Translations under genes and position numbers: made by a program
Part shown: positions 3,100 through 58,459 of the stretch, piece after piece
Position numbering within the stretch: position 1 is the first letter of the stretch
Layout of the letters: every line of letters begins with the position of its first letter
NCBI GenBank assembly: GCA_963769885.1
Contig: CAVYNH010000004.1
Span: 75,904 to 139,903, forward strand
Direction: 5' to 3'
Source: Methanobacteriota archaeon
GTDB lineage: Archaea; Thermoplasmatota; E2; DHVEG-1
DNA length: 64,000 nucleotides
Notes under the pieces: generated by a model
What the model was told of the DNA's origin: nothing
Seen by the model: the letters and a program-made list of their open reading frames with translations, nothing else
Databases searched by the model: none

Positions 3100-4200
3100 A
3101 CCGCCAAGTTGCAAGCACCGAAACGATCCGCTTATGATTTTCTAATCCCCGATTGGACCGGAAGGCGCCGATGATCTTGCGCATAACCACATGCTCGTGA
3201 ATCGTTTGCTTGGCGACGTTGTCCGTCGGCTGCATCTCTGGATACAGCAAGCACGTATGCTAGCTGCTCGGTCCGTTCATTAGGTATTGCGCCTTCACTC
3301 GCGCCTCAGGATTATCGATGTAGTTATCAACCAGGGATTTAAGTTCCCGGTCCCAGTGCATTTTTTGTTTGATGCGCTGGGACATCGGCGGGTCCTTGCC
3401 GACGAAGACTTTCAACTTCTTGAATCGTCGATGCAACTTTCGGGAGAACCTCTGTTCGTGGTCTGAGAGGGTCGCCAGCATCGACCTCTCGGTGGAGGTG
3501 TGCCCAGCAGCGCTTTACCGTGGGCAGCGCCTGGTAGCTGCGGTGGCCGTCGTTGACCAAGGTGCCGTTGACACCTCGGCGCCGAAGATTTCCTTAGCCC
3601 TTTCTGCTACGGGATGCTCTGATCATTATTAGGACACCCGTACTAATCGGTTAAAAAATCCGCAGCTAGTGGTTCCTCCTCGTGATTGGCACCCCGGTCC
3701 CGCCGGTATGCCGCCAGCGAGTGGTCCTAATCCTCAGTTGGAGACATTCGTATTCGGGAGCGCAGGTGCCCCCAACCCGTAGGGAGATGTTGTGGACGTC
3801 TTTGGGACTAATCTGCAGCCCATATTGTTGGTGGAGGGCGTCCTGGATGCGTCGCAGGACGCCCCGTTGGTGGAACTTCATGAGGGTAATGGTGGTCATG
3901 AGGTGGACGCAGAAGCTGCCTTGGTGTGGACAGTCCAGATGCGCAGCAGTGATTTCGATGCCGCACCCGAGGCAGTGACAGCAGTGAAGGTCGTCACAGG
4001 CAACCTTGACGTGTGGTGGTGGGATGTCTTCGATGGTGCGGAATTCGATGCTGGTCGCGGCTTCTACCTCGGAGCCACATCGGGAGCAGCAAGGGTAATG
4101 ACGATGATTTCATTGGGGTCTGGTATGTCCCGGGTGGCACTGCGGTGGCCCGATAGGGCACCATGTCGCCCTGGCGTGCTGCCCTGCCAGCGTAGATTTT
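3100..4200 (-). pseudogene. GC-rich degenerate segment with transposase-like ORF fragments (family uncertain)
   Basis: Several short overlapping minus-strand ORFs with Cys/His-rich stretches (CDDLHCCHCLGCG) and no continuous frame; composition differs from the AT-rich neighbours. Family assignment not supported. Confidence 0.2.
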
Positions 4201-9232: not shown

Positions 9233-10366
9233 ATGCCGATTAAGTTTCTACATACGGCTGACTGGCAAATGGGTATGAAAGCTCTTCAAGCTGGCGAGAA
9301 AGCAAAGGAGGTTCGTGTTAAGCGTTTTGAGACAGCGAAGCGAGTTATTGAATTGGCAAAAAATGAATCTGTTGATTTTGTCATTCTTGCTGGTGATTTA
9401 TTTGAGCATCATGATATTGATGAATTAGTTGTCCGGAAAACAGTGGATATTCTGAACAACTTCAATCCCATTCCAGTCTTTATACTGCCAGGTAATCATG
9501 ATCCTCTTGTTTCCGGCGGCATCTGGGATCGGCATAGCTGGCAGCAAGTTAAAGGTCATATTACACTACTTCGAGAGGCTAAAGAAACCTTGGTCTCGGA
9601 TCAGGTCGTCATTTATCCTTCGCCATTATCCCAGAAACAAAGTTCGACCGATCCGACAGAATGGATTCCAACCAGAACTCCTGGCGATAATCGTATTAGG
9701 ATTGGGATCGCGCACGGTTCTTTAAACATATTACCTGAGCGTACCAACTTTCCTATTGCAGCTGACCGTGCGGATAAATGTTCATTGGATTGTTTGGCTC
9801 TTGGAGATTGGCACAGTTTCCTACAACATGGTCGGACTGTCTATCCTGGTACTATGGAGCAGACAAGCTTCACCGAAAAAGATTCGGGAAACGTTGCAAT
9901 AGTAGAGATTAAGAAAGTGGGTAATGAGCCGATTGTTTTTAAAAAACATATTGGACAATTCCTTTGGAGCGAGCATCAACCAACTATTCAGGACAAAACC
10001 GATGTTGATGGTTTTCGTGCCTTACTCTTGAAACAAGCATCGCTTTCCAACCAACTACTTAGGATAGCACCGATAATCACTCCAGAAGCCTCTTCAGACG
10101 CTATATCCGAACTAAAAATACTTCGAGATGAGCTGTTTGAAGAATCATTCTTTCTCAACTGGCCAGATGAAATGTTTAATACCACCCTTGATACCTCAGC
10201 GCCCTTACCGGACGGACTACTATCTAATGTGGATATTGACTTCGCAAACATTCTCAATCACCGGATTCCAGATGGACCTGGCCAGGAGTTCGCATCAGCT
10301 GACTTAACAGTGGTCCTTGAGGCACGAACTCTTCTCAGACGAATTGCAAAAGAGGGGGCAAAATGA
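9233..10366 (+). CDS. SbcD/Mre11-like calcineurin-type metallophosphoesterase (nuclease subunit-like)
   Basis: Motifs FLHTADWQMG (motif I with Gln where SbcD has His), ILAGDLFEH, LPGNHD, IAHGSL, GDWH; stop overlaps start of downstream gene (ATGA at 10363-10366). Confidence 0.75.
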   Translation: MPIKFLHTADWQMGMKALQAGEKAKEVRVKRFETAKRVIELAKNESVDFVILAGDLFEHHDIDELVVRKTVDILNNFNPIPVFILPGNHDPLVSGGIWDRHSWQQVKGHITLLREAKETLVSDQVVIYPSPLSQKQSSTDPTEWIPTRTPGDNRIRIGIAHGSLNILPERTNFPIAADRADKCSLDCLALGDWHSFLQHGRTVYPGTMEQTSFTEKDSGNVAIVEIKKVGNEPIVFKKHIGQFLWSEHQPTIQDKTDVDGFRALLLKQASLSNQLLRIAPIITPEASSDAISELKILRDELFEESFFLNWPDEMFNTTLDTSAPLPDGLLSNVDIDFANILNHRIPDGPGQEFASADLTVVLEARTLLRRIAKEGAK

Positions 10367-20023: not shown

Positions 20024-20909
20024 CCGGTTTTACCTCAAGAAATAGAATGGTCGGGTTGTTTTTGATGGTTTGGGTAGTTCCTTCGATAGACTTAAAAGAA
20101 AGGATGGTTAATAGGTAGTGAGGTGAGAAGATTTCTCCTGAACCAACAAATGCTGAAATAATAGCCAAGCTTGAAAGAATTGAATGGAAAGCAGGGCGTT
20201 CTTGGTTGATTGCCTGGGTCTTCGGAGGGTTTGCGCTCGTCGTCGCCGGATCCAGGTTCCTGAAAGACTATACAGCCTATTCATTCATGTGGGGTTATAC
20301 GCTCCTAATTACATGCCTTGGAGTTATCATCATGGCTGCTGCCTTTATTGGATGGATTTGGCATTACCGAAAAAAACCACAGGAACCACATTGCCCACTT
20401 ACAGAGAGATCGAACAAATTATAAAGAAGAATCCCTCTCTGAATTATAGAGGATTTTTGATGGATGAAAGTAAGGGGTTCAAATCCTGGGATGATTATTT
20501 TTCCTATTGGGAGAAGAAAGTTCAGGATCTTCGAAAGGAGATGTTGTCACCTGATGCTTGCGGTATGATTTTATCAACTTTCCACACCGGCTTTGGCGTG
20601 TTGACGGTGTTGTGTCATTGCTCTGAAGAAAAAATGACGGGTTATTATCTGAAGTATGACCGTTGAACAGCAAACTTGATGTTGCTTTATCCCTTGCCAG
20701 AACAAAATATATGGACGAACATCCTCCGCTTACGGAGAAATTTATTGAAGCCCTTGGGAATTTGATAAGACAAAGGACAATATCAAAAAAACCGTGACAA
20801 GGCTTGATCCGACTTGTTTCGTAGAATATGAATCTATGGATTAATATTTGGTGTTTCAGCGGGATGCCAATCGATATCAAAAGTAGGGAAGCAGCCCGGT
20901 GGATTCGTG

Positions 20910-21189
20910 GTGCTCGTACCCGCTCCAGAAGGCAACCGCGTGGGTAGCGTTTGCGGAACCCGGGGTGTGCCTCGAACATCCTCTTAGCGCTGTGGGATTT
21001 TAGCATGGTCTCAGCGGCTTGGATGGAGTACCGCTTGGGGACGTTGACCTGGAAGAGGATGTGGTCTTCGGCGAAGCCGAGTTCGCCGAAGCCAAACCCG
21101 TGGTGTTCCAGATCGTGGAACGCCTGGGTGCAGATGTCGATGTGGCTTTGTCTGCTGAAGCAGTGGTAGCGGTTTTTGGTCACAAACAT
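20910..21189 (-). pseudogene. Degenerate IS200-like TnpA (HuH Y1 transposase) remnant
   Basis: Inside track ORF 20479..21366(-): NRYHCFSRQ...GELGFAEDHILFQVNVPKRYSIQAAETMLKSHSAKRMFEAHPGFRKRY resembles TnpA (YHC...PDHVHLLVSIPPK...LKG.SAR.LF.EFP) but HVH is HIL and the Tyr region is lost; GC-rich. Confidence 0.35.
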
Positions 21190-21452
21190 CGTGGTCACCC
21201 AGTTGTTGCGGGTGTCACCCGCAATCTTTTTAGAGCTGCCGCTCGATACCATCTCCATAAATGTATTTTCTCCTGTCGCGCCTTTACAGGGGGCAGGCGG
21301 ACGCCTGCCCGCGCGCGACAAAAAACAGTATATCGAGTGTTTTGGGAAAAAGATGGCGTCTTTCATCAGCGAGTCTTCACTGCGGTTCAGACCGCATAGT
21401 ATTCCCAGTCCAGCAAAGAACCCAAAGAGATGGAACCAACAAAGAGAGCTGG

Positions 21453-21854
21453 TTATTTCCTTGGTTGATACTCGTGAGGTATGGTTACTGGTTTTGAATC
21501 GACCTTGTTTTCCCGGGCAAGCCAGCCCAATGCTGCGTAGACATCCCGCTCATCCATCTGGTGTAACGTGGAGACGTCGCAGACATCGATGGTCCCTCGT
21601 GTTTCCAGCTCTTTCCATATCTTCCCTGCATCGACCCCAATCTTTCCCGTGAGATTGGTATCCCCAAGCCTATAGATAGGACCTTCCTTGCAGATCTTGT
21701 TCTCTCGGGCAAGCCAGCCAACCGCGCTGTAAAACGCGTCATCATGCATCCGCGTGGTTTCCTTTAATTTCGTTTCAGTTTGTGGTCCAAACGTCTGAAG
21801 CGTCCTCCAGATCTCTCCAGCATTCTTTCCGAATTCTTCCATGACATTCGTCAT
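21453..21854 (-). CDS. Tandem winged-helix protein (DUF2582-like, two internal repeats), GC-rich copy
   Basis: Two repeats each containing NAGEIWRTL / DAGKIWKEL and (A/V)GWLARENK motifs; 133 aa. Confidence 0.6.
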   Translation of the reverse strand: MTNVMEEFGKNAGEIWRTLQTFGPQTETKLKETTRMHDDAFYSAVGWLARENKICKEGPIYRLGDTNLTGKIGVDAGKIWKELETRGTIDVCDVSTLHQMDERDVYAALGWLARENKVDSKPVTIPHEYQPRK

Positions 21855-21959: not shown

Positions 21960-22382
21960 CTATTTCAATTTTATTTGGTATTTTTTTGGTATTGTTTTCG
22001 TTGTTTCTATTTTATCTTCTCGAGCGAGCCATCCTAATGCGCAGTAGACATCTTTTTCATCTATCTGGAGATGATTCATAATGTTGTGCATGTCAACCTT
22101 TCCGTGCATCTCCATTATTTTCCATACCTTTCCTGCATCGGCTCCGATTTTATCGGTTAAATTTGTTTCTCCAAGTTTGTATATAGGTCCATCTTTGCAA
22201 ATTTTATTTTCTCGTGCCAGCCATCCAATTGCCACATAGAATTCATTATCATGGAATCGTGTGGTTTCTTTGAGTCTTGTTTCAGTTAACGGTCCGTAGG
22301 TATTCAGCGTCTTCCATACCTCTCCAGCATTCTTTCCGAATTCTTCCATGACATTCGTCATCAAGTGTCCACCTTCGTGCAT
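21960..22382 (-). CDS. Tandem winged-helix protein (DUF2582-like), AT-rich paralog of 21453..21854
   Basis: About 75% identical to the upstream copy at protein level (MTNVMEEFGKNAGEVWKTL...IGWLARENKICKDGPIYKLG) but much lower GC; true start probably the internal MTNVMEEF. Confidence 0.6.
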   Translation of the reverse strand: MHEGGHLMTNVMEEFGKNAGEVWKTLNTYGPLTETRLKETTRFHDNEFYVAIGWLARENKICKDGPIYKLGETNLTDKIGADAGKVWKIMEMHGKVDMHNIMNHLQIDEKDVYCALGWLAREDKIETTKTIPKKYQIKLK

Positions 22383-22968: not shown

Positions 22969-23070
22969 CCAAACAATCTCCCTGCATCCGTTTTTTCGTA
23001 AGCGATATCTAAGAAAGGTATTTTATTTTTTTCTACAAAAAGAAATTTCTATTCATTGAATTGAATGAAA

Positions 23071-23180
23071 TGAAATAGAGGCTTTTCGTCTATGACCCCG
23101 TTCCGCCTTCGTTCCTTTCATCTGCGGATCTGAACCGCAGTAAAAATCGCGCAGTATTCCCGGCCGCTATTGATAAGATC
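23071..23180 (+). repeat. Intact copy of the ~110-bp intergenic repeat family
   Basis: tgaaatagaggcttttcgtctatgaccccgttccgccttcgttcctttcatctgcggatctgaaccgcagtaaaaatcgcgcagtattcccggccgctattgataagatc; internal hairpin ctgcgg/ccgcag. Confidence 0.65.
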
Positions 23181-23236
23181 AGGCTTTGCACATAAAATAT
23201 TTTTCTCCTTCTAATGATAAATAAAAAATACTTAAA

Positions 23237-24597: not shown

Positions 24598-26580
24598 ATG
24601 AAAAAAAGACGCTTTAGTGTAGTAATAATATTGATGCTGGTCCTGTCAACGACGACCCTAATTTACTTAAACAACCCAATAACGAAAGCAGGCACACAAA
24701 ATTGGTTTCCACTGATTCCGGATGGGTTTGGAAAGGCTTCAAACGTGGCGACACGAGGCATGGCTATCTTCAAAGGTGATCTCTACGTCGGCACTCAAAA
24801 CAATAATCCTATCCTCCATAATCTAGAACTCGGTGGTTTCCCTGCAAGCACACTCATCTTGATGGCGGATGGCTCTTCCAAAACTGTTGAACAAATCAGG
24901 GTTGGGGACATGGTGAAAGCCTATGATTTCGATAGTAACGTCTTCACCAGAGCCAGGGTAACTTCATTAATGCAGACCTCTCTTCAAGATATATCCAGCC
25001 TCATCGTAATCAACAACAAAGTCACTGCAAGCCCGTATCAACTCTTTTCTGTCGGCGATACCTTGAATATCGCTGAGAATCTCAGAATCGGTGACCGTCT
25101 AGTAGATAGCCATGGATTAGCCGCCCCGATAACCTCAACATCTCAAATCACCAACCTCGGAAAAGTATATAGTTTCACTATGACGGTGAATATATCACAA
25201 CTCGGCAGCCTTGCATTCTATGCTAACAATATCCAGGTGTATCCCTGGGTTCCGAATCAGCCTGCACAACCGTATGGACTGCAGGGTGGGCAAGAGGGAC
25301 GAGATGGGGAATGCATCGACTCACTGTTCCCATTACTCAAAGGATTGGGGAACTGGACTGCGACAAAGATATGCAATGTAGGAATTGATCTTATCGCAGC
25401 GTCTAGTGACGGTGGTGAACTATGGAAATATAATGCAACCCAACAACACCCCTGGACGCCAATCATCGGGAACACCAGCAGGATACACTCTGGGTTCAAC
25501 CACACTACGAACTGGGTGATAACCGCTCCAACGGTGTTTACGAACAATACTAACATGACTCACCTTTACGTTGGTACATGGCGATCAAGAATCCCCCTCG
25601 ACCAACCGTTAGTTGGCGGCTGTCAGATATGGCGATTCGATGGGACGACATGGCAAGAAGTCGTCTTCGCTGGATTCGGCGATGCCTACAATGTCGGTGT
25701 CATGACCATGGCGGTCTTCAATAACACCCTCTACGCGGGTACGTTGAACTTCAACTGGATGTCGAACGGATTCACGCAAATCTGGCGGACTGTGGATGGT
25801 GTGAATTGGAATAAGGTCGTCGATCGAGGATTCCGAGATGTGCAGCCGGTAGGGGGCTTCAAGAATGCATATACTTGGAGTATGGGCGTGTTCCAAAACC
25901 AGCTCTACGCTGGGACATTCAATATCCCCGTCGGTGATAATAGTACGCAGGGCTGCCAGCTCTATCGAACCTCTACTGGTAATCCGAGTGATTGGACCCT
26001 AGTACCCATCAATGGTTCAGCGTATGGCATCGGAGAACAAACGATATTCTATGGCATTCGGAACTTAATAAATTATAACAACCAATATTTCTACGTTGGC
26101 GTCACCGCCAGTTTCTTGCAACGGAAACTGCAAAACCATCCCGATCCCAAGGGGCTTGAGATCTGGAGGTACGCAGGAGGAACCAGTTGGACTTGTATGG
26201 CGGGGGACAAGGCGACGAACAACCCTAACTCCACTAGCTACTGTGGTTTCGGCAATTACTATAATAAATACCCCTGGTCGATGGCTCTGTGTGGTGGCAA
26301 GCTCTGGGTAGGGACCGCAAATACACAAGAACTAGCGAATTGGTCTTCGATTACCCAAGGAGGCGAAGTCTGGCGGCTAGATAATACAACATGGACGCAG
26401 GTTGTAGGAAACCGATCAGGCGCTGAAATGCCGAGCGGGTTTGATGAATTGTTAAATTGGGCCATGCGGTCGATGATTGAGTACCCCAAGGACAGCGGAC
26501 AGCTCATCGTGGGAACCTACAGTGATCAGACCTACACGAATCCTCCGGAAGCCTGCGAGATCTGGATCCGGTATCCATAA
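24598..26580 (+). CDS. Secreted repeat (beta-propeller-like) protein with an embedded Hint-like domain lacking catalytic residues
   Basis: AGGAGGGAG RBS; N-terminal hydrophobic signal; residues ~78-220 GGFPASTLILMADGSSKTVEQIRVGDMVKAYD...KVYSFTMTVNISQLGSLAFYANNIQVYPW follow Hint block order; remainder has repeated LY(V/A)GT...C(Q/E)IWR..G..W units. Confidence 0.6.
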   Translation: MKKRRFSVVIILMLVLSTTTLIYLNNPITKAGTQNWFPLIPDGFGKASNVATRGMAIFKGDLYVGTQNNNPILHNLELGGFPASTLILMADGSSKTVEQIRVGDMVKAYDFDSNVFTRARVTSLMQTSLQDISSLIVINNKVTASPYQLFSVGDTLNIAENLRIGDRLVDSHGLAAPITSTSQITNLGKVYSFTMTVNISQLGSLAFYANNIQVYPWVPNQPAQPYGLQGGQEGRDGECIDSLFPLLKGLGNWTATKICNVGIDLIAASSDGGELWKYNATQQHPWTPIIGNTSRIHSGFNHTTNWVITAPTVFTNNTNMTHLYVGTWRSRIPLDQPLVGGCQIWRFDGTTWQEVVFAGFGDAYNVGVMTMAVFNNTLYAGTLNFNWMSNGFTQIWRTVDGVNWNKVVDRGFRDVQPVGGFKNAYTWSMGVFQNQLYAGTFNIPVGDNSTQGCQLYRTSTGNPSDWTLVPINGSAYGIGEQTIFYGIRNLINYNNQYFYVGVTASFLQRKLQNHPDPKGLEIWRYAGGTSWTCMAGDKATNNPNSTSYCGFGNYYNKYPWSMALCGGKLWVGTANTQELANWSSITQGGEVWRLDNTTWTQVVGNRSGAEMPSGFDELLNWAMRSMIEYPKDSGQLIVGTYSDQTYTNPPEACEIWIRYP

Positions 26581-26963
26581 AGAAACAGAAGGAAATGGCT
26601 GGCCTTTGCGTGATGGTGCCGGCCATTTTTCTCCTCTTTTCTTCGATGGCATGTTACGCAATCGACGCATTAGCTTGTTCTGCAAGTTAAAATTATAGTT
26701 GATATTGGACCTGTGAGGGTTCCGTTTATAGGGAGGGGGGTTCTCCCCGATGTGTCGGGGGAATTCTTTGTATTGGAATCGAAGATTAAAGGTCTGAATG
26801 AGCAAAGAGGTTACGAATTTCACTCAATTCTCTCTGTCTCTTCTCAGTCAGAATATATCGCAATATCGGGAAAAAGGTGATCCGGCGGACTTCATGAATG
26901 GATAATGCAAGACTTCAAATTAGAGAAAAAAGAGAGATAGAATCAGGGGAGGATCCCCTGATT

Positions 26964-29900
26964 CTACAGGCCGCTGACGCTGAACACAAACGCGGAGACG
27001 AGATGATGCTGGTCGCTGTCGATGAGGACGTTCCCCTGCTGGTCGCAGAATGCCGCATAGACCCGATATTGCCCATTCCCATGTCTGAGGTCATCGGTTT
27101 TCACAAGGCCATGGAAGATGCTGTCAAGGGCCAACAGCCCGCCGCTTTGAATGAGCCGCGGGGTTTGCTCGTCAACCGCCTTCGTATCCAGCATCCATTG
27201 TCCAGTCCGCGGGTCCTGGAACTCCACCTGGATCAGGAGGTAGCCCCGGATGTCCGTGATCCCAGTGTTCTTGATCTTCGACTGGTTCCGGCACTGCACG
27301 ACCAACCGAGGCTGGCATCCAATCCCCTGGAACTCATAGGAGGAGATAGCGACGTATTCATTCCCGGTCGGCGTGGTCCCGCTGATGTCCCTGCTGCTAC
27401 GTAGGCAGAGTTTTGTCACTCCGATCCGATTGATCCAGCCGAGCCCCTGGCTGTTGAGGGAGAGATCGTTGAACCCGTTGACGAAGTTATTAGTGTTGAA
27501 CTGCCCGCCGTTCCCTGAATACAGGCTCTTGTCGTAATCCGTGACGATGAGAGGATTATGGGGATAGGTCGGCTGTCCGTTCTGGACCGTGATCAGGAAG
27601 TCTGTCGTCGAGTAGTCACCCATTTTATAGAGGCCTAGTGTGGCGGCGTCGATGATGGCGTTCGACGGGATTCGTGTCGTGTCGAAGAAGAGGAATCCTC
27701 GGTAAAGGGAGTATGGTCCGAACGGTGGATTGAATTTTTGCCCGATGAGGATGGAGGCGCCAGTGTTGTCGACGGTGCCTCGGGTGCTTGTCCACGCGGT
27801 GTTGTAATTCGTGTTCGAGTTGTAGATATAGCCATCCGTTGCTTGGGAGTAGAGCGTGATGCTGGGATCGACCTCGGGGAATGCGTCGGTCAGTTCAATG
27901 ACCTCTCCTTTGGTGTACGAGGTTTTGAGCGTACCGACGCTAAGGGTCGCATGGGCGGCGATGTCGAAGTAGAATCCGGTCGCGGTTTGCTCGTTGCCGA
28001 GGTTATCGACGGCCCTGACGCTCACGGGATATCGCCCGGTGAGCCAGGTGTCGTTGAAGTAGCACTCGTATCTGTTCGGGACGCCAGTGACGAGGGTCAT
28101 TGGGATCTGTGTTTCTTTCATTTGTTGGGATTGGTTCGGTAACTGGATTGCTGCTGTTGCTGCCTTCACGCCGCTGATGTTATCCATGATGGTGGCTTGG
28201 ATGTGGATTTGTGAGCCGAAGCCACTCAGTGAGGGCGTGACCAAGACTGACGTGATGTACGGTCCGTCGGCGTCGAACGTGGCATGGTGGGTCTCGGTGG
28301 AGCTTTGATTGCCCTGGATGTCGATGGCGTGGGCGGAGAAGGTGTAGGTGCCGGAGAGTCCGGTGAAGGTGTGGGCGAGCTTGTGGACGCTGTTGTTGTA
28401 GGAGGCTTGGATTTCTTCCCAGCTTAATGCCCTGGCGTAGAGCTGCGGCTCGTCGAGGAGGCCGCGGAAATGGTGGTACTCCGCCGTGTTCTCTTCTGAG
28501 AGGCAGGTCTCCTGGTTGTTTGTGATGTCGCGGACGGTGCCGGTGGTGCTCTGGTCGAATTCGCCGTCGACGTAGAGTCGAAGCTCGGTGCCCTGCCGGA
28601 CGTAGGCGATGTGATGCCATGCCTCGGCGGTGATGGGGATGGTTCCGGTGAGGCTGGTGGTTTGGCCTGGGAGTGATCCTTGCGAGGTGAAGATGCGTGC
28701 GTATGAATTGGAGATGCCGCAGTAGTATCCCTGGCCGGTGGCTTCAGGCTGGTTGCTCAGGATGATGCGGATGCTTGGGGGCTCGAAGGAGACGGGGACG
28801 TTCACCCACGTCATGAAGGTGAAGTCGCCTGTTCCTAAGTTCAGGCTAGGGTCTTTTCCGCAGTGGACCGCATCGTCGATGCCGTCAAAGTCTAATGCCT
28901 TTCCGAATTTCCCGGTGACAATATCGGATGGCCCAAGGCCTCCCCAGAAGACCCCGTTGTTGTGATACGTCGAGTCGTCAATCACACTGGTATCGTTGTA
29001 GTCGTCCATGGGCCAGTAGCCGCGGAGGGTTCTGTTCCAGTCGATGAACGCCGCTGTCTGGAGGCCGTCCTCGACGGTGGCGTTCACTTGTGCCCAGCTC
29101 TGGTTGATCATCGCGTTATCTGGCGGTGTGGGCGGGACAAAGTAGATGATGGGGGTGGGCGTGACCGTGAAGTTGAACTCGTTTGAGTAGTTGGTGTTGT
29201 TCGCGTTGTCGACGGCCCATACCCGGCCTCTGTATTCGCCGCTCTGCTGGGTGTCGGAGAAGGTGAGGAAGTAGCTGTCGTTGATGATGTGGGTCATGGG
29301 GTATTCAGCCGTCGAGTTGTCGGGGGCGGTGATGTTGACCCAGGCGGTGTTGATGCCGCTGTCGTTGTCGGCGATCACTGCCGCTATTGAGGCGTTCATG
29401 CCGACGCCGACGACTTCCGGCGTGACGTCGAGGTACGTGATCTTCGGCGGGGTCATCTCGAAGGTGATGTTGAGCTGTTTTGTTATGGAGTGGAGTTGGT
29501 GTGTATCATCGGTCACGGTCAGCGTGACGTTGTATTGGCCTACGTTTTCATAGAAGTGGGTCACGTTTCGACCATTGGTGATGTTTCCATCCCCGAAATT
29601 CCACGTCCAATCGGTGATATGGAGGCCGTCGCAGGCGGCCGAGGTGTCATTGAAGACGATGGGGTAATCCGGGTTAACGTAGGGGTAGTTCGGGACGCTG
29701 AGGTTGTAGCTAACGTTGAGCGGCATGACCGAGACGTTGACTGAAATCTCCTCTATGTAGTTATTCGCATCCGAGACCCTGAGACGAACGACGTTGTCGT
29801 CTCCGGCTCTTTCGAAGTGATGGACCAGGGTCTGTTCATGGTGGGGGATCAGCTCGTTGTTTATGGTCCACTCATAGTCGACGGGGGCAATCGCGCCGGC

Positions 29901-32828
29901 TACCTGCGCGGCATAGATGGAGTCGATACCGACGACGGACGGCATCGAGGTCGCTCCGAGCACGCTCTGTGCGGATGCCGCTGCGGAACAGGACATCAAC
30001 AGATCCAACGAGAACTTGACCGTGACCGTGAACGGATCGGAGAATACACTCCAGTTTCCGTATCGGCTGACGCCAGGCATGGCTCCATCGAAGAGATACC
30101 CTTTGAAGTCCTCGCGGGCTCTCACCACGATCGTGCGCGATCCCGCCCAATGGTAGACGTGGGATGCGTCGCATGGGTGGTCTTCAACGATCGGCCCGAC
30201 GCGATCATTGTCATTTGTCCACTCATAGTTCCAGTACCATTGATATTGTAATGGGTCTCCTTCGTCATCATCGGTCCCGGTTGAACTGAATGTGGCTTTC
30301 TCTCCGGCATGGACGGTGGTCGGGCCGGTAATGTCCCCTGGCTTGTTGGGGTCGACATTGCTGCGCTTATCTAAATGAACGAAAGGAACCTGCGTCGCGA
30401 TATCATTCGGGCGACTGGTTTCATCCCTGATAATATTGTCAATTCGTCCGGAGGAATTGTACAGCTCGAGGTGGAGTTTATACCAGCCGGCGTTCACCCC
30501 ATTTACCGGCGGCAGCGTCATCGTGATCGTCTTCTGAACGCCGTCGGAGGTCGCTTCGAAATCAAAGTATTTCCACGTGACGTCCTGGCAATCGTCATTT
30601 AGGAGGCTGGCTTTGATTCTCACCTTGTCTGAGGGGAGGGTGGATGTCACGGTGAGCGTCGCCTGAATAGAGTCATCCTTTCCATCCTGATCGATGTCAA
30701 CAACGTTAAAAGTCACCGGTCCGTCGAACTCGCAGTCGGGGTTCAGCATGTAATATTTGAAGATATCCCAGATCAATTCCGTAGAGGCGACGACGTCGCT
30801 GTGATCGATGTATTGCATGCTGTCGCCGTCGGTATAGTTGTCGCCGGCTCGATGCCATTGATCCCAGGAGTATCCGATATATTTTGGTTTGCCAAAAATG
30901 TTCTTGCCGACGACGCTGTCACCCTTGAACAGACAGGTCGTATTTGCTTGGGGAAATGTAGCATTGACCGTCCCCTGTTCTGATCCAAAACCAGATCCAG
31001 CTCTGACCCAGCAATCGTAATTCGAATAGCCGCTCTCTTTTCGAATGGTATCCAATGTTTTTTCTCTCTCTTTTTCTGTTGTGAAAATCGACACTCCGCA
31101 GTTCTTCTGGTTAAAGCCGAGTTGGTCGAGGATCAGCCAATGTACTAGGGTATTACCCAGACTACCTGAATGATTGTCGACGTAGTGTCGAGCGCCTTGG
31201 AATCCGTGTTCCTCCGCCGTTGTGAAAAGGAACGTGAGGTTGTATTTTGGTTTGATGGAGGGATGGTCTTTGACGTATTTTGCTATGGTGAGGACGATTG
31301 CGCACCCGACTCCGGAGTCGCCGGGTGTCTGTCCCCACATGCCGTCGTACCTATTTGAGAAGATCCCAACAGCGTTACCGGGGCTTCCGCCGGGAATCGA
31401 GATGTTGGCATAGACGTCGTCCCCTATCGTCCCTGGATGTCCCGGCGTCTCTTCGAGGTAATCCTGTCTTGCATCGCCGGTAAGAGTCGTGGTGTCATGA
31501 TTCTCGCTTAAGAAATCGCCAGCCGTGTAATTTAACGTCAGTATTGGCAGCATATAGGTAGAATTTTTTTCGGTATTTTGATCGACAACAAAATGGTAGT
31601 CATGCGAATCATATAAAATAACAGCTGTGCAATTGAGTGCCGGACAATTGATGAAATTAAAGAATTGTGTGACGAGTGTGGCAGCAAATAAGACATGAGC
31701 AAAACTTACTTTGGCATGGATGGCTTCGTCCTGGTGGGTGGGGAAATTCACGAGGGTTTCACCTAATGCGATCGTCTTGTATAATGGGTGACTATACCAT
31801 GTCACATTCAACAGTTCACTGTGATCCGGGATTCTACAAAGGAGAACAAATGGCTGGTACGCGGGATAAATACCAAGGAAATCATAACGGAAGGTCAGAT
31901 CCGTCATGAAGTCTCCAAAGTTATCTACTAAGACGACAGGGTAGCTTGACAGGCGTTCTTTCACCTCGTTCCCAGATTCGTTATCAATCCAAAGAACGGG
32001 GTAACAACAATTTGAGGTATCAGTAATGTATTCGATTCCTTGATCATTGTAGTCAACGATGATGACCGCTGTTGCGTCAGTGATGGTATCCAGCTTTGCC
32101 TGCGCTCCTGGCAGATCGTCAATCAGGAAGACGCGGTCAATCATATAGTCTGGTGGGCAAGGATCGTCGGGTCCTATGTAATGAACAATTCCGAAGATCA
32201 CTTTGAAAATATAGTCAGTCAATTTCCCGAATTCACGAACGGTGTAGGAGCCTCTCCCTCCAAATAATTTTCCGAGCTCAAAGGGGACGATCTTGGTATT
32301 ATCGAAGACATAATGCTTTGTCCAATTTTCGCTTCGCGAAGCGGCATTGTCTTTACTTGCTTCTATTGTGTTTTTATAGGGGATATATCCGATTTCCTTC
32401 CGTGAAATAGGATTCATGAATGGGTACGTCGGTGCTCCAGGATCTGTGTTGACGCTCAAGTGAAAATCGGTGTCGTTGATGATGCATGAATAGTTTCTAT
32501 GCGCTTCATTGATGTAGGCAAGTCGCTCTGTTTTTACATTCCCCTGGCCGAACATGGTTTCAAGTCGAGGCACCAGTATTTCATTTGCAGTGTATATTCC
32601 TCCTTTTGAGTCAAAGTTCCTTCCCTTGGGGATATCAGTTTGGTTGTATGCATCGTATATCACATTGGTCAGATTCCCTAACACTTCCCAGAGATAATCA
32701 TAGTCGAGGCCTTCTGGCACAGCCACGGCTTTTGAGACGCTGTTCTTTGGGTCGAATTTGGTTACCATTAGACTGGTTGCCACGAGCATCAAACAGACTA
32801 CTAGTCCGAAAAATTTCCTACTTACCAT
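26964..32828 (-). CDS. Giant secreted multidomain surface protein (M28-peptidase-like, PKD-like and LamG-like domains; many N-glycosylation sequons)
   Basis: 1954 aa; GGAGG RBS; signal peptide MVSRKFFGLVVCLMLVATSLMV; FLFTTAEEHGFQGARHYV (M28-like EE motif); WNFGDGNITNGRNVTHFY and YQWYWNYEW (PKD-like); LRGYWPMDDYNDTSVIDDSTYHNNG...LRLYVDGEF (LamG-like). Confidence 0.8.
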   Translation of the reverse strand: MVSRKFFGLVVCLMLVATSLMVTKFDPKNSVSKAVAVPEGLDYDYLWEVLGNLTNVIYDAYNQTDIPKGRNFDSKGGIYTANEILVPRLETMFGQGNVKTERLAYINEAHRNYSCIINDTDFHLSVNTDPGAPTYPFMNPISRKEIGYIPYKNTIEASKDNAASRSENWTKHYVFDNTKIVPFELGKLFGGRGSYTVREFGKLTDYIFKVIFGIVHYIGPDDPCPPDYMIDRVFLIDDLPGAQAKLDTITDATAVIIVDYNDQGIEYITDTSNCCYPVLWIDNESGNEVKERLSSYPVVLVDNFGDFMTDLTFRYDFLGIYPAYQPFVLLCRIPDHSELLNVTWYSHPLYKTIALGETLVNFPTHQDEAIHAKVSFAHVLFAATLVTQFFNFINCPALNCTAVILYDSHDYHFVVDQNTEKNSTYMLPILTLNYTAGDFLSENHDTTTLTGDARQDYLEETPGHPGTIGDDVYANISIPGGSPGNAVGIFSNRYDGMWGQTPGDSGVGCAIVLTIAKYVKDHPSIKPKYNLTFLFTTAEEHGFQGARHYVDNHSGSLGNTLVHWLILDQLGFNQKNCGVSIFTTEKEREKTLDTIRKESGYSNYDCWVRAGSGFGSEQGTVNATFPQANTTCLFKGDSVVGKNIFGKPKYIGYSWDQWHRAGDNYTDGDSMQYIDHSDVVASTELIWDIFKYYMLNPDCEFDGPVTFNVVDIDQDGKDDSIQATLTVTSTLPSDKVRIKASLLNDDCQDVTWKYFDFEATSDGVQKTITMTLPPVNGVNAGWYKLHLELYNSSGRIDNIIRDETSRPNDIATQVPFVHLDKRSNVDPNKPGDITGPTTVHAGEKATFSSTGTDDDEGDPLQYQWYWNYEWTNDNDRVGPIVEDHPCDASHVYHWAGSRTIVVRAREDFKGYLFDGAMPGVSRYGNWSVFSDPFTVTVKFSLDLLMSCSAAASAQSVLGATSMPSVVGIDSIYAAQVAGAIAPVDYEWTINNELIPHHEQTLVHHFERAGDDNVVRLRVSDANNYIEEISVNVSVMPLNVSYNLSVPNYPYVNPDYPIVFNDTSAACDGLHITDWTWNFGDGNITNGRNVTHFYENVGQYNVTLTVTDDTHQLHSITKQLNITFEMTPPKITYLDVTPEVVGVGMNASIAAVIADNDSGINTAWVNITAPDNSTAEYPMTHIINDSYFLTFSDTQQSGEYRGRVWAVDNANNTNYSNEFNFTVTPTPIIYFVPPTPPDNAMINQSWAQVNATVEDGLQTAAFIDWNRTLRGYWPMDDYNDTSVIDDSTYHNNGVFWGGLGPSDIVTGKFGKALDFDGIDDAVHCGKDPSLNLGTGDFTFMTWVNVPVSFEPPSIRIILSNQPEATGQGYYCGISNSYARIFTSQGSLPGQTTSLTGTIPITAEAWHHIAYVRQGTELRLYVDGEFDQSTTGTVRDITNNQETCLSEENTAEYHHFRGLLDEPQLYARALSWEEIQASYNNSVHKLAHTFTGLSGTYTFSAHAIDIQGNQSSTETHHATFDADGPYITSVLVTPSLSGFGSQIHIQATIMDNISGVKAATAAIQLPNQSQQMKETQIPMTLVTGVPNRYECYFNDTWLTGRYPVSVRAVDNLGNEQTATGFYFDIAAHATLSVGTLKTSYTKGEVIELTDAFPEVDPSITLYSQATDGYIYNSNTNYNTAWTSTRGTVDNTGASILIGQKFNPPFGPYSLYRGFLFFDTTRIPSNAIIDAATLGLYKMGDYSTTDFLITVQNGQPTYPHNPLIVTDYDKSLYSGNGGQFNTNNFVNGFNDLSLNSQGLGWINRIGVTKLCLRSSRDISGTTPTGNEYVAISSYEFQGIGCQPRLVVQCRNQSKIKNTGITDIRGYLLIQVEFQDPRTGQWMLDTKAVDEQTPRLIQSGGLLALDSIFHGLVKTDDLRHGNGQYRVYAAFCDQQGNVLIDSDQHHLVSAFVFSVSGL

Positions 32829-33231: not shown

Positions 33232-33585
33232 GATGAAAGGGGACATCGAGAGGATATTCATACGAAAGGCGGACCTCAACAATGAAGACCGCGTCAAGGT
33301 CTTCATCGACAAATACTTGCGTGGAGAGCTATCCAACAAAGGGGTTGATACAGCCCATTCGCCTAAAATATCGCCAAAAAATTCAATGAAAAGTTGCAGC
33401 ATCTTTCTCTCTTCTTTTTTCTTTTTGCGGTTGTCGCCTGTCGCATGCGATAAAGACAAGTATTGATGGTTGTTCTGAAAAAGACGGCGGCCTTTAATCT
33501 GCGGGTCTTTACTACTCTGTTTAAACCACGTGATATTTCCGGTTGCTATCTAGATCAAAATCGTTGCCTTTCGATAATCTTCTTT

Positions 33586-33795
33586 CTAATCACTTCGAGA
33601 GTCGATATGTAACCCATTAATTTGATTTTGGTTAAAATAATTAAAATTTAAAGACTGTATATTTACCTTTGTATCAATCTTTGTATCAATCTTTGTATCA
33701 ATAATAGTTAAAGTAAATTTATAAAAAATAAAATTAATGGTAACATTTATTACTAAACTAATTCCAACAATTATTATAATTAAACTCAGCTCCAT
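33586..33795 (-). CDS. Small hydrophobic ORF containing an IDTK tandem repeat (doubtful)
   Basis: 69-aa track ORF; N-terminal hydrophobic segment; three tandem 12-bp DNA repeats (ctttgtatcaat) encode IDTKIDTKIDTK; starts 13 nt after the stop of 33808..35229. Confidence 0.2.
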   Translation of the reverse strand: MELSLIIIIVGISLVINVTINFIFYKFTLTIIDTKIDTKIDTKVNIQSLNFNYFNQNQINGLHIDSRSD

Positions 33796-36727: not shown

Positions 36728-36817
36728 CTTTATCTTTCCTTTTTTAAAAAATGAGTAGTGCTTTATAATGGCTTTGCTGGCTTTGTATATAAATTAGTTA
36801 GAGTTCTATCTTGCACA

Positions 36818-36932
36818 TGAAATAGGGGCTTTGCCCCTATAATCCCATTCTGCCTTCATTCCTCGGCAAGCCTTGGGAGGTCTTGCCGTATCTCACTCGG
36901 CGGTCAGGCACCGCTGCCGGTCGTCAACAATG
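36818..36932 (+). repeat. Copy of the intergenic repeat family with a diverged 3' half
   Basis: tgaaataggggctttgcccctataatcccattctgccttcattcct followed by a different hairpin (ggcaag...cttgcc). Confidence 0.5.
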
Positions 36933-38306
36933 GTTATGTTGTAATGTCGTTGTTGGTCTCAGAGGTAGGATGAGGATTAACCGAAGTTGATCCGTCCGAG
37001 GGATTTGTGGTGCTTGAATGCTTGATCAAATTCTATTCCATAATAGATTCTTCAGAATCTGGGTTACATTTCAAAAATGCGGTCTAAAGCAATAGACGGC
37101 TGAGTCAGTGGTTGTCACAGGAAAATGACTGTTATTTTTTTTGGAGAAAGGAATTTGAATATGAATTTTACCATTGCAGGTTCTGTAAAGCATAGCGTTG
37201 GTTAAATAGCGTTTGAAAATCAGAGTTGGCAAAGAAATATGTTTATTTTTTATTTTGATCTTTAATTACTTGAATCATTTCTAAATTATTTGCTCTAATG
37301 AAATCTGCCATCATAGAATTATTTGTTTCCATGAGTTTAGGAAGTTGAATCAACTCATTTCTAATCATTTCTAACTTACCCTCATACTCTTTTAATTCAG
37401 TCAATATCCCTATATCCCTATCATACGTACTTAAACCAACTTGCCATTGAATAAACATAGAAATAAGAAAACACAAGGTTCCCAATAAAAACCAGGAATA
37501 CCTCCGATGTAAAATAGAAAAATCCTATGAATAATGTTAAAATAGCTGTTGCCAGAATTTTAAATAAAATTATAGTTCTCCAATGTATCATAATTTCAGA
37601 ATATGCTTATGGAATTTAAATATCTATCATATTTTGTCTTTGTCAATTTAGTGTTTGCAAACTGGTTCTGTATAATCTGAGTGTGGTTAATTTAGTCTGT
37701 CAAATTTAATATCTTAAATGCAGTATTAGGGATGTAATTTTACCATTTTGAAAATCTACTCCAATAATACAAAATATCTGGAATGATACAATATAATATA
37801 AATGTGGGTAAGGCGTTCTCCAGACAAACAACAACAGCACGTTCCAGAATCGCTTAAAGAGTTTGAAAACTTTCTCAATAAAAACGGCGATAAGAAGAAA
37901 ATTGAGAAAGCGAAAAAAATATTTTATGAAACCTATCTCGAAAATATTCAAGGGGGGATGAGTCCAGAAGAGGCATTGCAAAAAGCGAAATCGGTTGCAT
38001 TATGCTTTTTGTTCGTACAGTAATCAACGAATCAATTTTAGATATTGTCGAGGAGAGAAGAAAAAGTTGTTGGAAGAAAAACTATTTGAGAAAACACACA
38101 ATACACATAAACATATGAATTCAGAACAAGCAGCAGATATAGCTATAAAATTTGCCAAAACACATGGAACTCCTTTTGTAAAACTAATAGATGCTACGCA
38201 AATTGGAAAAATCTGGTATGTAAAAATAGATGTCGGTGTAATTTCTGTTGATATTCGTACGATAAAAATCGATGATGTCTTAGGAAGAATCATCTCAATA
38301 TCATAA

Positions 38307-38417
38307 TGAAATAAGGGCTTTGCCCCTATGACCCCGTTCCGCCTTCGTTCCTTTTCTTTATAGGACTTACGCTGATGCTTCAGATCGCGCAGTATTCCCT
38401 GCCGCTATTAATAAATC
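38307..38417 (+). repeat. Intact copy of the intergenic repeat family
   Basis: tgaaataagggctttgcccctatgaccccgttccgccttcgttcc...cttacgctgatgcttcagatcgcgcagtattccctgccgctattaataaatc. Confidence 0.65.
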
Positions 38418-38487
38418 GTCAGAACTTCTATTCTGCAAATTGGCACGACACGAAATCTTTAAGGAATGTTGGAACCTTCTCGAAGTC

Positions 38488-41561: not shown

Positions 41562-41620
41562 AGCTATGGATAAAAGAGGGAAAATTCCCTCTTTTCCTCA
41601 TTTTTAAATATAGACAATTA

Positions 41621-41727
41621 TGAAATAGGGGCTACGCCCCTATGACCCCGTTCCGCCTTCGTTCCTTTCATCTGCGGGCCTTTACTGCGGTTCAGACCGC
41701 GCAGTTTTTCCGGGCCTCTATTGATAA
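41621..41727 (+). repeat. Intact copy of the intergenic repeat family
   Basis: tgaaataggggctacgcccctatgaccccgttccgccttcgttcctttcatctgcgggcctttactgcggttcagaccgcgcagtttttccgggcctctattgataatag. Confidence 0.65.
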
Positions 41728-41825
41728 TAGAAAAAATCATTTGGTTTTTTCATATTTTAAAAGAATTTATATATGCATTTATTGTTCTCTTTGTAATTTA
41801 AATTAATAAATTGAGGAGATAGTGA

Positions 41826-42299
41826 ATGGCTGATCAAAAAGATTCTTTTCTGTTGGATTTAAAAGATGACGTATTTCCGTTTGTTCTGGCTTTGACAATG
41901 ATTTTAACTTTTTTTATTATTGTGTATTGGTTTGTAAGGCCGGCTGATACTGACAACGTTGACAAGGTGATTACAGCGTTTGTGGCTTGGATTGGAGCCA
42001 TTATCGGTTTTTATTTTGGAAATAAGCCTGTGAAAGATTTGAGGAAGCAGGTTCAAAGCGTTTCGAATGAGGCCGGAAAAAATCAAGTGAATTACAATAA
42101 TGAGCATAAAAATTTTGTAAAAACAGTCAGCGCACTTAGTGAGTTGAATCATAATGTGGAGTTATATACAAATGAAAAGGCGCCCCAAGTAAAAGCAATG
42201 GCGGCAATGGAAGCGGATCCTGCGTTGGGAAAATTAATCAGAGCGTTAGAAGATTCAAAAGATAAATTAAAATATTTCGAACAGGAACTTCATAAATGA
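41826..42299 (+). CDS. Membrane protein with C-terminal coiled-coil region (hypothetical)
   Basis: Two hydrophobic segments (VFPFVLALTMILTFFIIVYWFV; ITAFVAWIGAIIGFYFG) followed by a charged helical tail. Confidence 0.45.
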   Translation: MADQKDSFLLDLKDDVFPFVLALTMILTFFIIVYWFVRPADTDNVDKVITAFVAWIGAIIGFYFGNKPVKDLRKQVQSVSNEAGKNQVNYNNEHKNFVKTVSALSELNHNVELYTNEKAPQVKAMAAMEADPALGKLIRALEDSKDKLKYFEQELHK

Positions 42300-42399
42300 A
42301 TAATGTGAATTCAGCGTAGGATCAAGAATTCAATCATGGTCAAAGTTGCGAGAGTTAGATGCTGGGCGGGGCTGATTTTTCCATACAGCTCACTATTCG

Positions 42400-42810: not shown

Positions 42811-42864
42811 GTAGACGATGATAGCCCGTTTCTTGGTATGCGGCAGGCGGATGCGCTCACCTCA

Positions 42865-44757: not shown

Positions 44758-44812
44758 AAGTTTCTTGCCTCTTGGGGTGTGTAGGGAGTCGGTAGGTTTA
44801 AATGTAGCAAAA

Positions 44813-45358: not shown

Positions 45359-45370
45359 GAAGATGTGGAA

Positions 45371-58453: not shown

Positions 58454-58459
58454 GAACCC

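What the first reader, a model, noticed from the sequence alone, without database searches (positions are those of the whole stretch)
23071..23180. Family of ~110-bp conserved, hairpin-containing intergenic repeats, all in the same orientation
Near-identical elements occur at 23071-23180, 38307-38417, 41621-41727, split at 13166-13218 plus 14544-14600, and with a diverged 3' half at 36818-36932. Conserved blocks are tgaaataggggctttgcccctat (8-bp stem hairpin), gaccccgttccgccttcgttcct, a variable hairpin (ctgcgg...ccgcag) and cgcgcagtattcccggccgctattgataa. All copies are on the plus strand regardless of the orientation of flanking genes. This could be a MITE-like element, a small structured RNA or a regulator site, and it is the apparent IS110 target.
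Basis: seen in the sequence. Interest (0 to 1): 0.6.

Follow-up and report, generated by a model that had tools for sequence, protein, structure and literature searches.

The report
IS200-derived miniature transposon, targeted by IS110
The ~108-bp repeats are gene-less, internally deleted copies (MITEs) of a ~700-bp IS200-type jumping gene common in Thermoplasmatota archaea, and the IS110-type element sitting in one copy carries a guide RNA matched to that exact spot; both are ordinary kinds of mobile DNA.

Summary
Four ~108-bp copies lie on the + strand at 23070, 38306, 41620 and 13165/14544; the last is split by an IS110-family element. Three decayed fragments of the parent element lie on the same strand.

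In 67 genome loci and 120 metagenome loci, almost all from Thermoplasmatota, the two halves of the repeat are the ends of a 696-718-bp element. That element encodes a ~154-aa Y1/HUH transposase on the opposite strand (Pfam Y1_Tnp E=5e-14). It is an IS200-group insertion sequence.

The window copies join 47 nt of the right end to ~62 nt of the left end. All share one junction, at a CCT microhomology, so they are a trans-mobilised MITE/PATE. Both end hairpins show compensatory changes. TTAT abuts the left end at 128 of 135 sites. [quoted passage not shown]

The IS110 element is IS1111-like. Its 3' non-coding region folds into a two-loop bridge RNA whose target guides match CATCTG^CGGGTCTT in the left-end hairpin. 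A relative inserted elsewhere has correspondingly different guides.

Verdict: new member of known kinds, modest interest.

The parts
23070..23176 (-). MITE copy A. Right-end part is 23070-23116 and left-end part 23117-23172 as read on +. The flanking target motif ATAA (TTAT on the inferred active strand) is at 23173-23176. The right-end hairpin is degenerate (ATAGAGGC..TCGTCTAT).
38306..38414 (-). MITE copy B, with ATAA at 38411-38414. The foot of the left-end hairpin is mutated (CTTTATAGGAC in place of CATCTGCGGGTC).
41620..41727 (-). MITE copy C, with ATAA at 41724-41727. It has the best-preserved right-end hairpin (ATAGGGGC-TAC-GCCCCTAT).
13165..13218 (-). MITE copy D, first piece as read on +. 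It holds the right-end part and the first nucleotides of the left-end part, up to CATCTG.
14544..14597 (-). MITE copy D, second piece. It holds the left-end hairpin from CGGGTCTT to the terminus, plus ATAA at 14594-14597.
13219..14543 (+). IS110-family element of the IS1111-like group, inserted in copy D. Its ends are ATGGCAGTAGAAC... and ...GTTCTAAGGAATG. The core dinucleotide is TG. It has ~15-bp subterminal inverted repeats at 13222-13239 and 14523-14538.
13302..14279 (+). IS110-family DEDD recombinase gene, 325 aa.
   Evidence: Pfam PF01548 and PF02371. NCBIfam transpos_IS110 207.8 bits against a cut-off of 140.
14324..14475 (+). Predicted bridge RNA. An outer stem (GGCAAGGGC/GCCCUUGCC) encloses two internal loops. 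Target-loop guides: AAGACCCGC (14340-14348) is the reverse complement of G+CGGGTCTT, and CATCTGA (14384-14390) equals the left flank CATCTG plus A. Donor loop: CTTGCCAC (about 14410) and AGGAATG (14448-14454).
20892..21412 (-). Truncated parent IS. It keeps the left end (terminus decayed) and transposase codons 1-122. It has a frameshift, the HUH motif is mutated to HIL, and the catalytic Tyr region is missing. It is 84.5% identical in nt to L053.
33434..33558 (-). Decayed left-end remnant of the parent IS.
36817..37081 (-). Right end plus the decayed 3' part of the transposase gene (codons ~93-154, with stop codons).

Best explanation
The ~108-bp repeats are non-autonomous deletion derivatives (MITE, or 'PATE') of a ~700-bp IS200-group insertion sequence of the IS200/IS605 family. 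This IS is widespread in Thermoplasmatota archaea.

Each copy is the 47-nt right end fused to the last ~62 nt of the left end. The right end carries the 8-bp hairpin ATAGGGGC/GCCCCTAT and finishes in TTTCAT on the transposase-sense strand. The left end carries an imperfect hairpin CTGCG-GGTCT...AGACC-CGCAG. The whole transposase gene has been lost by one deletion at a CCT microhomology.

Shown here:
- identity of the repeat's two halves with the ends of the parent IS
- one deletion junction shared by all copies
- compensatory changes in the hairpins
- TTAT abutting the left end
- co-orientation of neighbouring copies

Inferred by homology with IS608 and ISDra2: a Y1/HUH TnpA supplied in trans binds the two hairpins on the single-stranded top strand, which is the window's minus strand. 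An intact 154-aa copy, P0123, appears to lie on the same 392-kb contig outside the window. TnpA cuts 3' of TTAT and at the right terminus, releases a single-stranded circle, and re-inserts it 3' of a T-rich TTAT in lagging-strand template DNA. No duplication is made. This would explain why all seven loci in the window point the same way whatever the genes around them do.

The copies are old (77-83% identical) and partly decayed, so most are probably no longer mobile.

Separately, an IS1111-like IS110 element uses a bridge RNA in its 3' non-coding end to insert at CATC[TG]CGGGTCTT. That site is the foot of the left-end hairpin, so the repeat family serves as its landing site.
For: 1. Parent element. 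In 14 loci the two halves of the repeat bracket 696-718-bp elements. Each holds on the opposite strand an ORF with HVH and a conserved Tyr (SSAYLRDQ). Pfam Y1_Tnp gives E=4.9e-14, 52.9 bits against a cut-off of 23, covering 7-121 of 121 positions.

2. Junction. All four window copies, and one in an unrelated metagenome contig (L190), share the junction TTCCT|TTCATCTG. A virtual right-end-47 plus left-end-62 construct made from L053 aligns end to end at 80-88%.

3. Remnants. Fragments of the full-length element lie in the window on the same strand.

4. Hairpins. In the right-end hairpin 97% of cells are paired and 3 of 8 pairs show compensatory change; 0 of 500 shuffles reach the observed score, and slid controls give 29-62% paired. 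RNAalifold recovers the left-end structure, and the outer stem covaries: TGCGAC/GTCGCA, CAGGCC/GGCCTG, GCGGCC/GACCGC.

5. Target motif. ATAA (TTAT on the top strand) is at the fixed position at 128 of 135 distinct left-end sites, against 18 of 137 control windows. A-rich sequence follows it. The head-to-tail junction in L133 joins the left terminus directly to the right terminus without ATAA, so TTAT lies outside the element.

6. Flanks. There are no terminal inverted repeats and no consistent flanking duplication.

7. Geometry. TTAT lies 18 nt 5' of the left hairpin foot, against 19 nt in IS608 (PMC3201880). The 4 nt before the foot are AATA.

8. Orientation. Adjacent elements are co-oriented 23:6 over all loci (binomial p=0.001), and 17:6 without the window. 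Lagging-strand bias is established for this family (PMC5027513).

9. Partner. An intact TnpA, P0123, sits on a 392,430-bp contig.

10. IS110 targeting.
Against: - No empty site was recovered, so the exact ends and the absence of a duplication rest on flank comparison and one tandem junction.
- The left and right hairpins are not alike in sequence, unlike those of IS608.
- TnpA scores below NCBIfam's IS200 cut-off (46.8 against 55 bits). Its sequence matches to solved TnpA structures are marginal (E=0.02).
- No intact transposase gene is in the window.
- GC skew in the window is uninformative about replication direction.
- Some co-oriented pairs at contig ends could be assembly artefacts.
- No transposition was observed.
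Confidence: 0.9

Rival explanations
1. The repeats are a REP/REPIN-type element served by a domesticated single-copy RAYT transposase, kept by the host rather than being a decaying transposon derivative.
For: - JGI's automatic name for many homologs of the transposase is 'REP element-mobilizing transposase RayT'.
- There is a weak NCBIfam REP_Tyr_transpos hit, E=6e-4.
- Palindromic 'left-end-only' mini-elements that look REP-like exist in other loci: L096, L087, L002 and L013.
Against: - The REP_Tyr_transpos score is 19.6 bits against a cut-off of 80. The IS200 model scores 46.8 and Pfam Y1_Tnp passes its cut-off.
- The gene lies inside a discrete ~700-bp unit with two different ends, not between inverted REPs.
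- That unit is multi-copy within single genomes. Thirty-five loci of one MAG (CAZSHJ) carry its right end, most at contig ends.
- The window copies are right-end plus left-end fusions, not hairpin pairs.
Confidence: 0.04
2. The repeat encodes a small structured RNA or a cis-regulatory site, for example a terminator or operator, that was spread or is retained for function.
For: - The hairpins are conserved with compensatory changes.
- All copies are intergenic.
- On the minus strand the right-end hairpin is followed by TATTT, which looks like a terminator.
Against: - No Rfam match at gathering thresholds, nor at E<=1 apart from a chance FsrA hit of 26.9 bits against 80.
- Whole-element folding energy is within the range of shuffles.
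- Copies lie in every arrangement relative to neighbouring genes.
- Copies are decaying. One has lost the right-end hairpin and another the left-end stem.
- The same sequences are simply the ends of a transposase-bearing IS.
Confidence: 0.04
3. The repeats are part of the IS110 element's own machinery (ends, or solo remnants left after excision) rather than an independent element.
For: One copy is split exactly by the IS110 element. The same association recurs in other samples.
Against: - About 96% of left-end copies with readable context carry no IS110.
- A close IS110 relative (80% aa identity) sits in an unrelated target with no repeat nearby (L069/L070).
- The IS110 ends (ATGGCAG... and ...AAGGAATG) are unrelated to the repeat.
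Confidence: 0.01

Closest known systems
IS200 (Salmonella/E. coli) and the IS200 group of the IS200/IS605 family; mechanistic models IS608 and ISDra2
   Same: - Parent element of ~700 bp with a single ~150-aa Y1/HUH TnpA
- Different hairpin-bearing left and right ends, with no inverted terminal repeats
- A fixed tetranucleotide (here TTAT) abutting the left end, 18 nt from the hairpin foot (19 nt in IS608)
- Orientation bias
   Different: - Archaeal host (Thermoplasmatota)
- TnpA is divergent, below NCBIfam's IS200 cut-off
- The left and right hairpins are dissimilar in sequence
- The left end has an extra covarying outer stem
- The right cleavage motif lies directly after the hairpin rather than 10 nt away
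PATEs (palindrome-associated transposable elements) and other MITEs of IS200/IS605, e.g. in Haloquadratum and Geobacillus stearothermophilus (PMC3119063, PMC10055086)
   Same: - Gene-less elements made of the IS ends
- Presumably mobilised in trans by TnpA
- Multi-copy and intergenic
- The end motif TTCAT/TTCAC resembles the ISGst TAM/TEM motifs
   Different: - Derived from an IS200-type parent that has only TnpA, so no TnpB guide RNA is carried
- A single defined deletion junction
- Seen so far only in this genome and one metagenome contig
IS1111-group IS110 elements that target repeats or other transposons' ends: IS621 and ISPpu9/10 in REP, IS4321/IS5075 in Tn21 inverted repeats (PMC11208160)
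   Same: - DEDD recombinase
- Long 3' non-coding end with a two-loop bridge RNA
- Subterminal inverted repeats
- Dinucleotide core
- Insertion at one position of a multi-copy mobile or repeat sequence
   Different: - The target is the TnpA-binding hairpin of an archaeal IS200-type element and its MITE
- The core is TG
- Not yet shown experimentally

Membership tests
IS200/IS605 family (IS200 group), for the parent element | Encodes a Y1 HUH transposase (TnpA) with an HUH motif and one catalytic Tyr | tested here: met
   Pfam Y1_Tnp E=4.9e-14, above its cut-off, over the full profile length. HVH and the Tyr are conserved in 14 elements. NCBIfam IS200 scores 46.8 bits, below its cut-off of 55.
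IS200/IS605 family (IS200 group), for the parent element | Subterminal imperfect hairpins at both ends; no terminal inverted repeats | tested here: met
   The right-end and left-end hairpins are maintained with compensatory changes. The two ends are unrelated in sequence.
IS200/IS605 family (IS200 group), for the parent element | Left end always abuts a specific tetra- or pentanucleotide; no target-site duplication | tested here: met
   TTAT is present at 128 of 135 sites against 18 of 137 controls. The tandem junction in L133 lacks it. No consistent flank duplication is seen. No empty site was available.
IS200/IS605 family (IS200 group), for the parent element | Strand-specific (lagging-strand template) insertion | tested here: inconclusive
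   Neighbouring copies are co-oriented 23:6 and the window is 7 of 7. The replication direction is unknown and GC skew is uninformative.
IS200/IS605 family (IS200 group), for the parent element | Single-strand 'peel and paste' transposition through a circular ssDNA intermediate | not testable with these tools
   Needs biochemistry, or sequencing reads that span circle junctions.
MITE / PATE (non-autonomous derivative), for the window repeats | Both ends of an autonomous IS are retained, with no coding capacity | tested here: met
   The copies are right-end 47 nt plus left-end ~62 nt, 103-105 nt in all, with no ORF.
MITE / PATE (non-autonomous derivative), for the window repeats | Amplified as such: the same internal junction at several unrelated sites | tested here: met
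   Four window loci and L190 share the junction TTCCT|TTCATCTG, each with different flanks.
MITE / PATE (non-autonomous derivative), for the window repeats | A cognate transposase is available in trans in the same genome | tested here: inconclusive
   The window holds only dead remnants. An intact P0123 lies on a contig of the same length as the window's source, but its DNA could not be retrieved.
REP / RAYT system | A single-copy RAYT gene flanked by inverted REPs, matching the RAYT model | tested here: not met
   NCBIfam REP_Tyr_transpos scores 19.6 bits against a cut-off of 80. The gene lies inside a multi-copy ~700-bp unit with distinct ends.
IS110 family, IS1111-like group, for the inserted element | DEDD recombinase | tested here: met
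   NCBIfam transpos_IS110 scores 207.8 bits against a cut-off of 140.
IS110 family, IS1111-like group, for the inserted element | Right non-coding end longer than the left | tested here: met
   The non-coding ends are 83 nt (left) and 264 nt (right).
IS110 family, IS1111-like group, for the inserted element | Subterminal inverted repeats | tested here: met
   13 of 15 nt match between the two subterminal repeats.
IS110 family, IS1111-like group, for the inserted element | Bridge RNA whose target guides match the insertion site | tested here: met
   A two-loop fold is predicted. The guides covary with two different targets.
Known RNA families (Rfam 15) | A match at or near a family's gathering score | tested here: not met
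   No match at the repeats. There is only a chance FsrA hit of 26.9 bits against 80.

The most novel reading that the evidence does not exclude
The IS1111-like element may be a dedicated 'parasite of a parasite'. Its bridge RNA is hard-wired to the TnpA-binding hairpin of this IS200 family. Each insertion would then use a harmless multi-copy landing site and also split the left-end hairpin, disabling an IS200 or MITE copy. That would make a three-layer nested mobile-element system in archaea that could restrain the IS200 family. The REP-like 'left-end-only' palindromes seen in other genomes could mark a transition of this family towards a REP/RAYT-type relationship.
Probability: 0.15. Interest if true: 0.5.

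Novelty: new member of a known kind. Interest (0 to 1): 0.3.

Why it matters
This result explains a puzzling same-strand repeat family without invoking a new RNA or regulator.

It defines an apparently uncatalogued archaeal IS200-type element, giving its ends, its TTAT target motif and a MITE derivative. These should be masked or annotated in Thermoplasmatota MAGs, where the element breaks assemblies: many contigs end inside it.

If the lagging-strand rule holds in archaea, the orientation of these copies is a cheap marker of replication direction in uncultured genomes.

The inserted IS1111-like element gives a clean natural example of guide-target covariation in a bridge RNA. It comes from an archaeal host and has 9-nt and 7-nt guides and a TG core. 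That may interest people collecting bridge recombinases.

Tried and rejected
- **Exact-protein look-ups failed.** Look-ups for the IS110 protein, the CBS protein, P0001 and P0123 found nothing. The rest of the source contig could therefore not be read. The Rad50 look-up only returned the same genome (L068).
- **MITE-junction scan.** An exact metagenome scan for the MITE junction found nothing. A later left-end scan showed why: the one other MITE (L190) has a diverged right-end block.
- **Empty sites.** A BLAST of the flanks of 17 copies against all loci found no empty site.
- **Circle-integration idea.** I considered that the two large remnants (20892-21412 and 36817-37081) were halves of one IS opened by integration of a ~16-kb circle. 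I rejected this. The remnants overlap by ~90 nt of transposase coding sequence and differ greatly in decay: 84% against 47% aa identity to P0123, the latter with stop codons. A third remnant also lies between them.
- **Structured RNA.** Whole-element folding as ssDNA gives no signal. Rfam is empty.
- **GC skew.** It gave no information on replication direction.
- **Solved structures.** Sequence matches to solved TnpA structures were only marginal. I did not run structure prediction because Pfam was already decisive.
- **Guide and cleavage-site pairing.** Both TTAT and the AATA before the hairpin foot are invariant, so no covariation test was possible. The right-end terminal base (T or C) does not covary with the bases before the hairpin.

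Full report
**1. Observation**

The 23-nt and 29-nt conserved blocks and the hairpin block occur 3-4 times at up to 3 mismatches, against 0.00 expected in dinucleotide-preserving shuffles. An independent repeat search recovers the family and adds a partial copy at 21360-21411.

A profile built from full-length relatives finds seven loci in the window, all on the + strand:
- 13148-14606 (split copy)
- 20894-21412
- 23055-23186
- 33434-33558
- 36811-37078
- 38296-38418
- 41608-41737

No tRNA or Rfam family lies at any of them.

**2. What the repeat is**

I scanned one genome per species for the right-hand block and obtained 67 loci. Nearly all are from Thermoplasmatota or Thermoplasmatales MAGs, and many matches lie at contig ends, as expected of a multi-copy repeat.

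In those loci the 5' 47 nt and the 3' ~62 nt of the window repeat are not adjacent. They lie ~600 bp apart and bound elements of 696-718 bp. Each element carries on the opposite strand an ORF of ~150 aa with an HVH motif and a conserved Tyr.
- Pfam Y1_Tnp passes its cut-off over the whole profile (E=4.9e-14).
- NCBIfam's IS200 model is the best hit but falls below its cut-off (46.8 against 55 bits).
- The RAYT model is far below its cut-off (19.6 against 80 bits).

This is the size and content of an IS200-group insertion sequence.

The window copies are right-end 47 nt joined to left-end ~62 nt. All four have the same junction (TTCCT|TTCATCTG), where the parent has ...TTCCT|CGGCAAG... on one side and ...GGCCT|TTCATC... 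on the other. This points to one deletion at a CCT microhomology. An artificial fusion of the L053 ends aligns end to end with them at 80-88%.

One more copy with the same junction lies in an unrelated metagenome contig (L190). Other deletion derivatives of 328 and 463 bp occur elsewhere. The same junction at five unrelated sites means the short form itself was copied. That is the definition of a MITE, called a PATE in this family (PMC10055086).

The locus at 20892-21412 is a left end plus codons 1-122, with HUH mutated to HIL and a frameshift. The locus at 33434-33558 is a left-end relic.

**3. Anatomy and likely mechanism**

I read the elements on the transposase-sense strand, which is the window's minus strand.

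*Left end.* A 13-pair imperfect hairpin has a strongly conserved lower stem. In full-length copies it is enclosed by an outer stem that covaries between subfamilies. RNAalifold finds the same structure, and slid controls collapse from 89% to 24-43% paired. The MITE has lost the inner half of that outer stem.

*Right end.* An 8-bp hairpin is 97% paired, with compensatory G-C to A-T and C-G to T-A changes. It is followed directly by TTCAT or TTCAC.

*Target motif.* TTAT abuts the left end at 128 of 135 distinct sites from genomes and metagenomes, against 18 of 137 control windows. It is preceded by T-rich sequence. In L133 two copies lie head to tail with the left terminus joined directly to the right terminus without TTAT, so TTAT is flank and not element.

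*Ends and flanks.* Flanks on the other side are unrelated. No duplication or inverted terminal repeat is seen.

*Comparison with IS608.* TTAT lies 18 nt 5' of the hairpin foot, and the four bases before the foot are AATA. In IS608 the cleavage site lies 19 nt from the foot and is read by the four bases before the foot (PMC3201880).

These features match the family's published rules, so I infer 'peel and paste' single-strand transposition by TnpA supplied in trans. That step is inference.

*Orientation.* The family's known preference for the lagging-strand template (PMC5027513) would explain the same-strand orientation. Over all loci, neighbouring copies are co-oriented 23:6 (p=0.001), and 17:6 without the window.

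*Partner transposase.* An intact 154-aa TnpA (P0123) is 84% identical to the window's dead copy. It is recorded on a single 392,430-bp contig, the same length as the contig that holds the window's own IS110 protein. I could not fetch that DNA.

*Age.* The MITE copies are 77-83% identical to each other, and two have damaged hairpins. Most are probably relics.

**4. The IS110 element**

*Identity.* The insert at 13219-14543 encodes an IS110-family recombinase. It has a short left non-coding end (83 nt) and a long right one (264 nt), plus ~15-bp subterminal inverted repeats. This is the IS1111-group layout, in which the bridge RNA lies in the right end (PMC11208160).

*Position.* The element sits between CATC[TG] and CGGGTCTT at the foot of the left-end hairpin. 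The same element sits at the same nucleotide in:
- a full-length IS200-type copy (L071)
- L059
- four metagenome copies (L081, L165, L118, L177)

All have different outer flanks. About 4 of ~105 left ends with readable context are occupied.

*Guide covariation.* A relative 80% identical in protein (L069/L070) sits in a different target, GGTAAG[TG]|CGAAATTG. The 3' non-coding regions of the two elements align throughout except for two short segments:
- AAGACCCGC against CAATTTCGC. These are the reverse complements of G+CGGGTCTT and G+CGAAATTG.
- CATCTGA against TAAGTGA. These are the two left flanks plus A.

*Fold.* The region folds into an outer stem with two internal loops (z=-2.1). The two variable segments face each other in the first loop. 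AGGAATG (the IS right end) and UUGCCAC (partly complementary to the IS left end) face each other in the second. This is the published bridge-RNA architecture with natural guide-target covariation, so the repeat family is indeed the programmed target.

**5. Comparison, novelty and verdict**

The repeat works like, and by the tested features belongs to, the MITE/PATE derivatives of IS200/IS605. The parent is a divergent, apparently uncatalogued archaeal IS200-group element. Public annotation calls its gene only 'transposase' or, wrongly, 'RayT'.

The REP/RAYT, structured-RNA and regulator readings are not supported.

The finding is real and now explained. It is a new member of known kinds and of modest interest. 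The most useful by-products are the element definition for MAG annotation and a clean archaeal bridge-RNA example.

Noticed in passing
window 62522-62642 (+) and 57563-57638 (-): Rfam finds a 121-nt tRNA at 62522-62642 that ARAGORN (bacterial settings) misses. It is probably an intron-containing archaeal tRNA. A tRNA-Arg(CCG) lies at 57563-57638. Together with the relatives' taxonomy, this suggests the window is from a Thermoplasmatota archaeon.
   Followed up: no
window 26000-32000, 42000-46000, 58000-62000: Base composition is very uneven. Blocks of 50-58% GC alternate with 33-38% GC elsewhere. The blocks include a 1954-aa ORF at 26964-32828 (-) and a 781-aa prenyltransferase/Ig-domain ORF at 42865-45210 (-).
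   Followed up: no
window 20892-21412 and 36817-37081: The two large IS remnants are arranged as if circularly permuted: the left part lies upstream and the right part 15 kb downstream, with overlapping coding sequence. I considered integration of a circle through the IS. The ~90-nt overlap, very different decay (84% against 47% aa identity) and a third remnant at 33434 make independent truncated relics more likely.
   Followed up: partly
L096, L087, L002:3270-3345, L013:137-210: Palindromic 'left-end-only' mini-elements of ~85-90 bp occur in other genomes. An example is TTATTAGTTGCGGC...left-end hairpin...GCCGCAACTAATAA. The left-end terminus is present in inverted form on both sides, which looks REP-like.
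   Followed up: no
L133:428-1364; L183:6939-7401; L013:137-599; L092:1254-1581: L133 holds a head-to-tail tandem of two IS copies with a precise junction between the left and right termini. Other internally deleted derivatives of ~463 bp and ~328 bp occur in other metagenome and genome contigs.
   Followed up: partly
window 21453-21854 and 21960-22382 (-): Two adjacent paralogous genes with DUF2582 winged-helix domains share a 243-nt direct repeat at 75% identity. They lie immediately next to the truncated IS.
   Followed up: no
window 7028-8977 (-), 9233-13053 (+): An OLD-like TOPRIM/ABC-ATPase gene sits divergently next to an Mre11-like phosphoesterase and a Rad50/SMC-like ATPase pair. The split MITE lies 112 bp downstream of the Rad50-like gene.
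   Followed up: no
window 33655-33702: There are three tandem copies of a 12-nt unit (CTTTGTATCAAT) about 100 bp downstream of the left-end remnant.
   Followed up: no
L007 (CAZSJH010000425.1): A 1.5-kb contig consisting almost entirely of this archaeal IS is binned in a 'Rikenellaceae bacterium' MAG. This is probably a binning error caused by the repeat.
   Followed up: no
window 3383-3396 and 33496-33509, 41669-41682: There are near-matches to the IS110 target CATCTGCGGGTCTT. The one-mismatch sites lie in the left-end relic at 33496 and in MITE copy C at 41669, and both are unoccupied. A two-mismatch site at 3383 lies outside any repeat.
   Followed up: no
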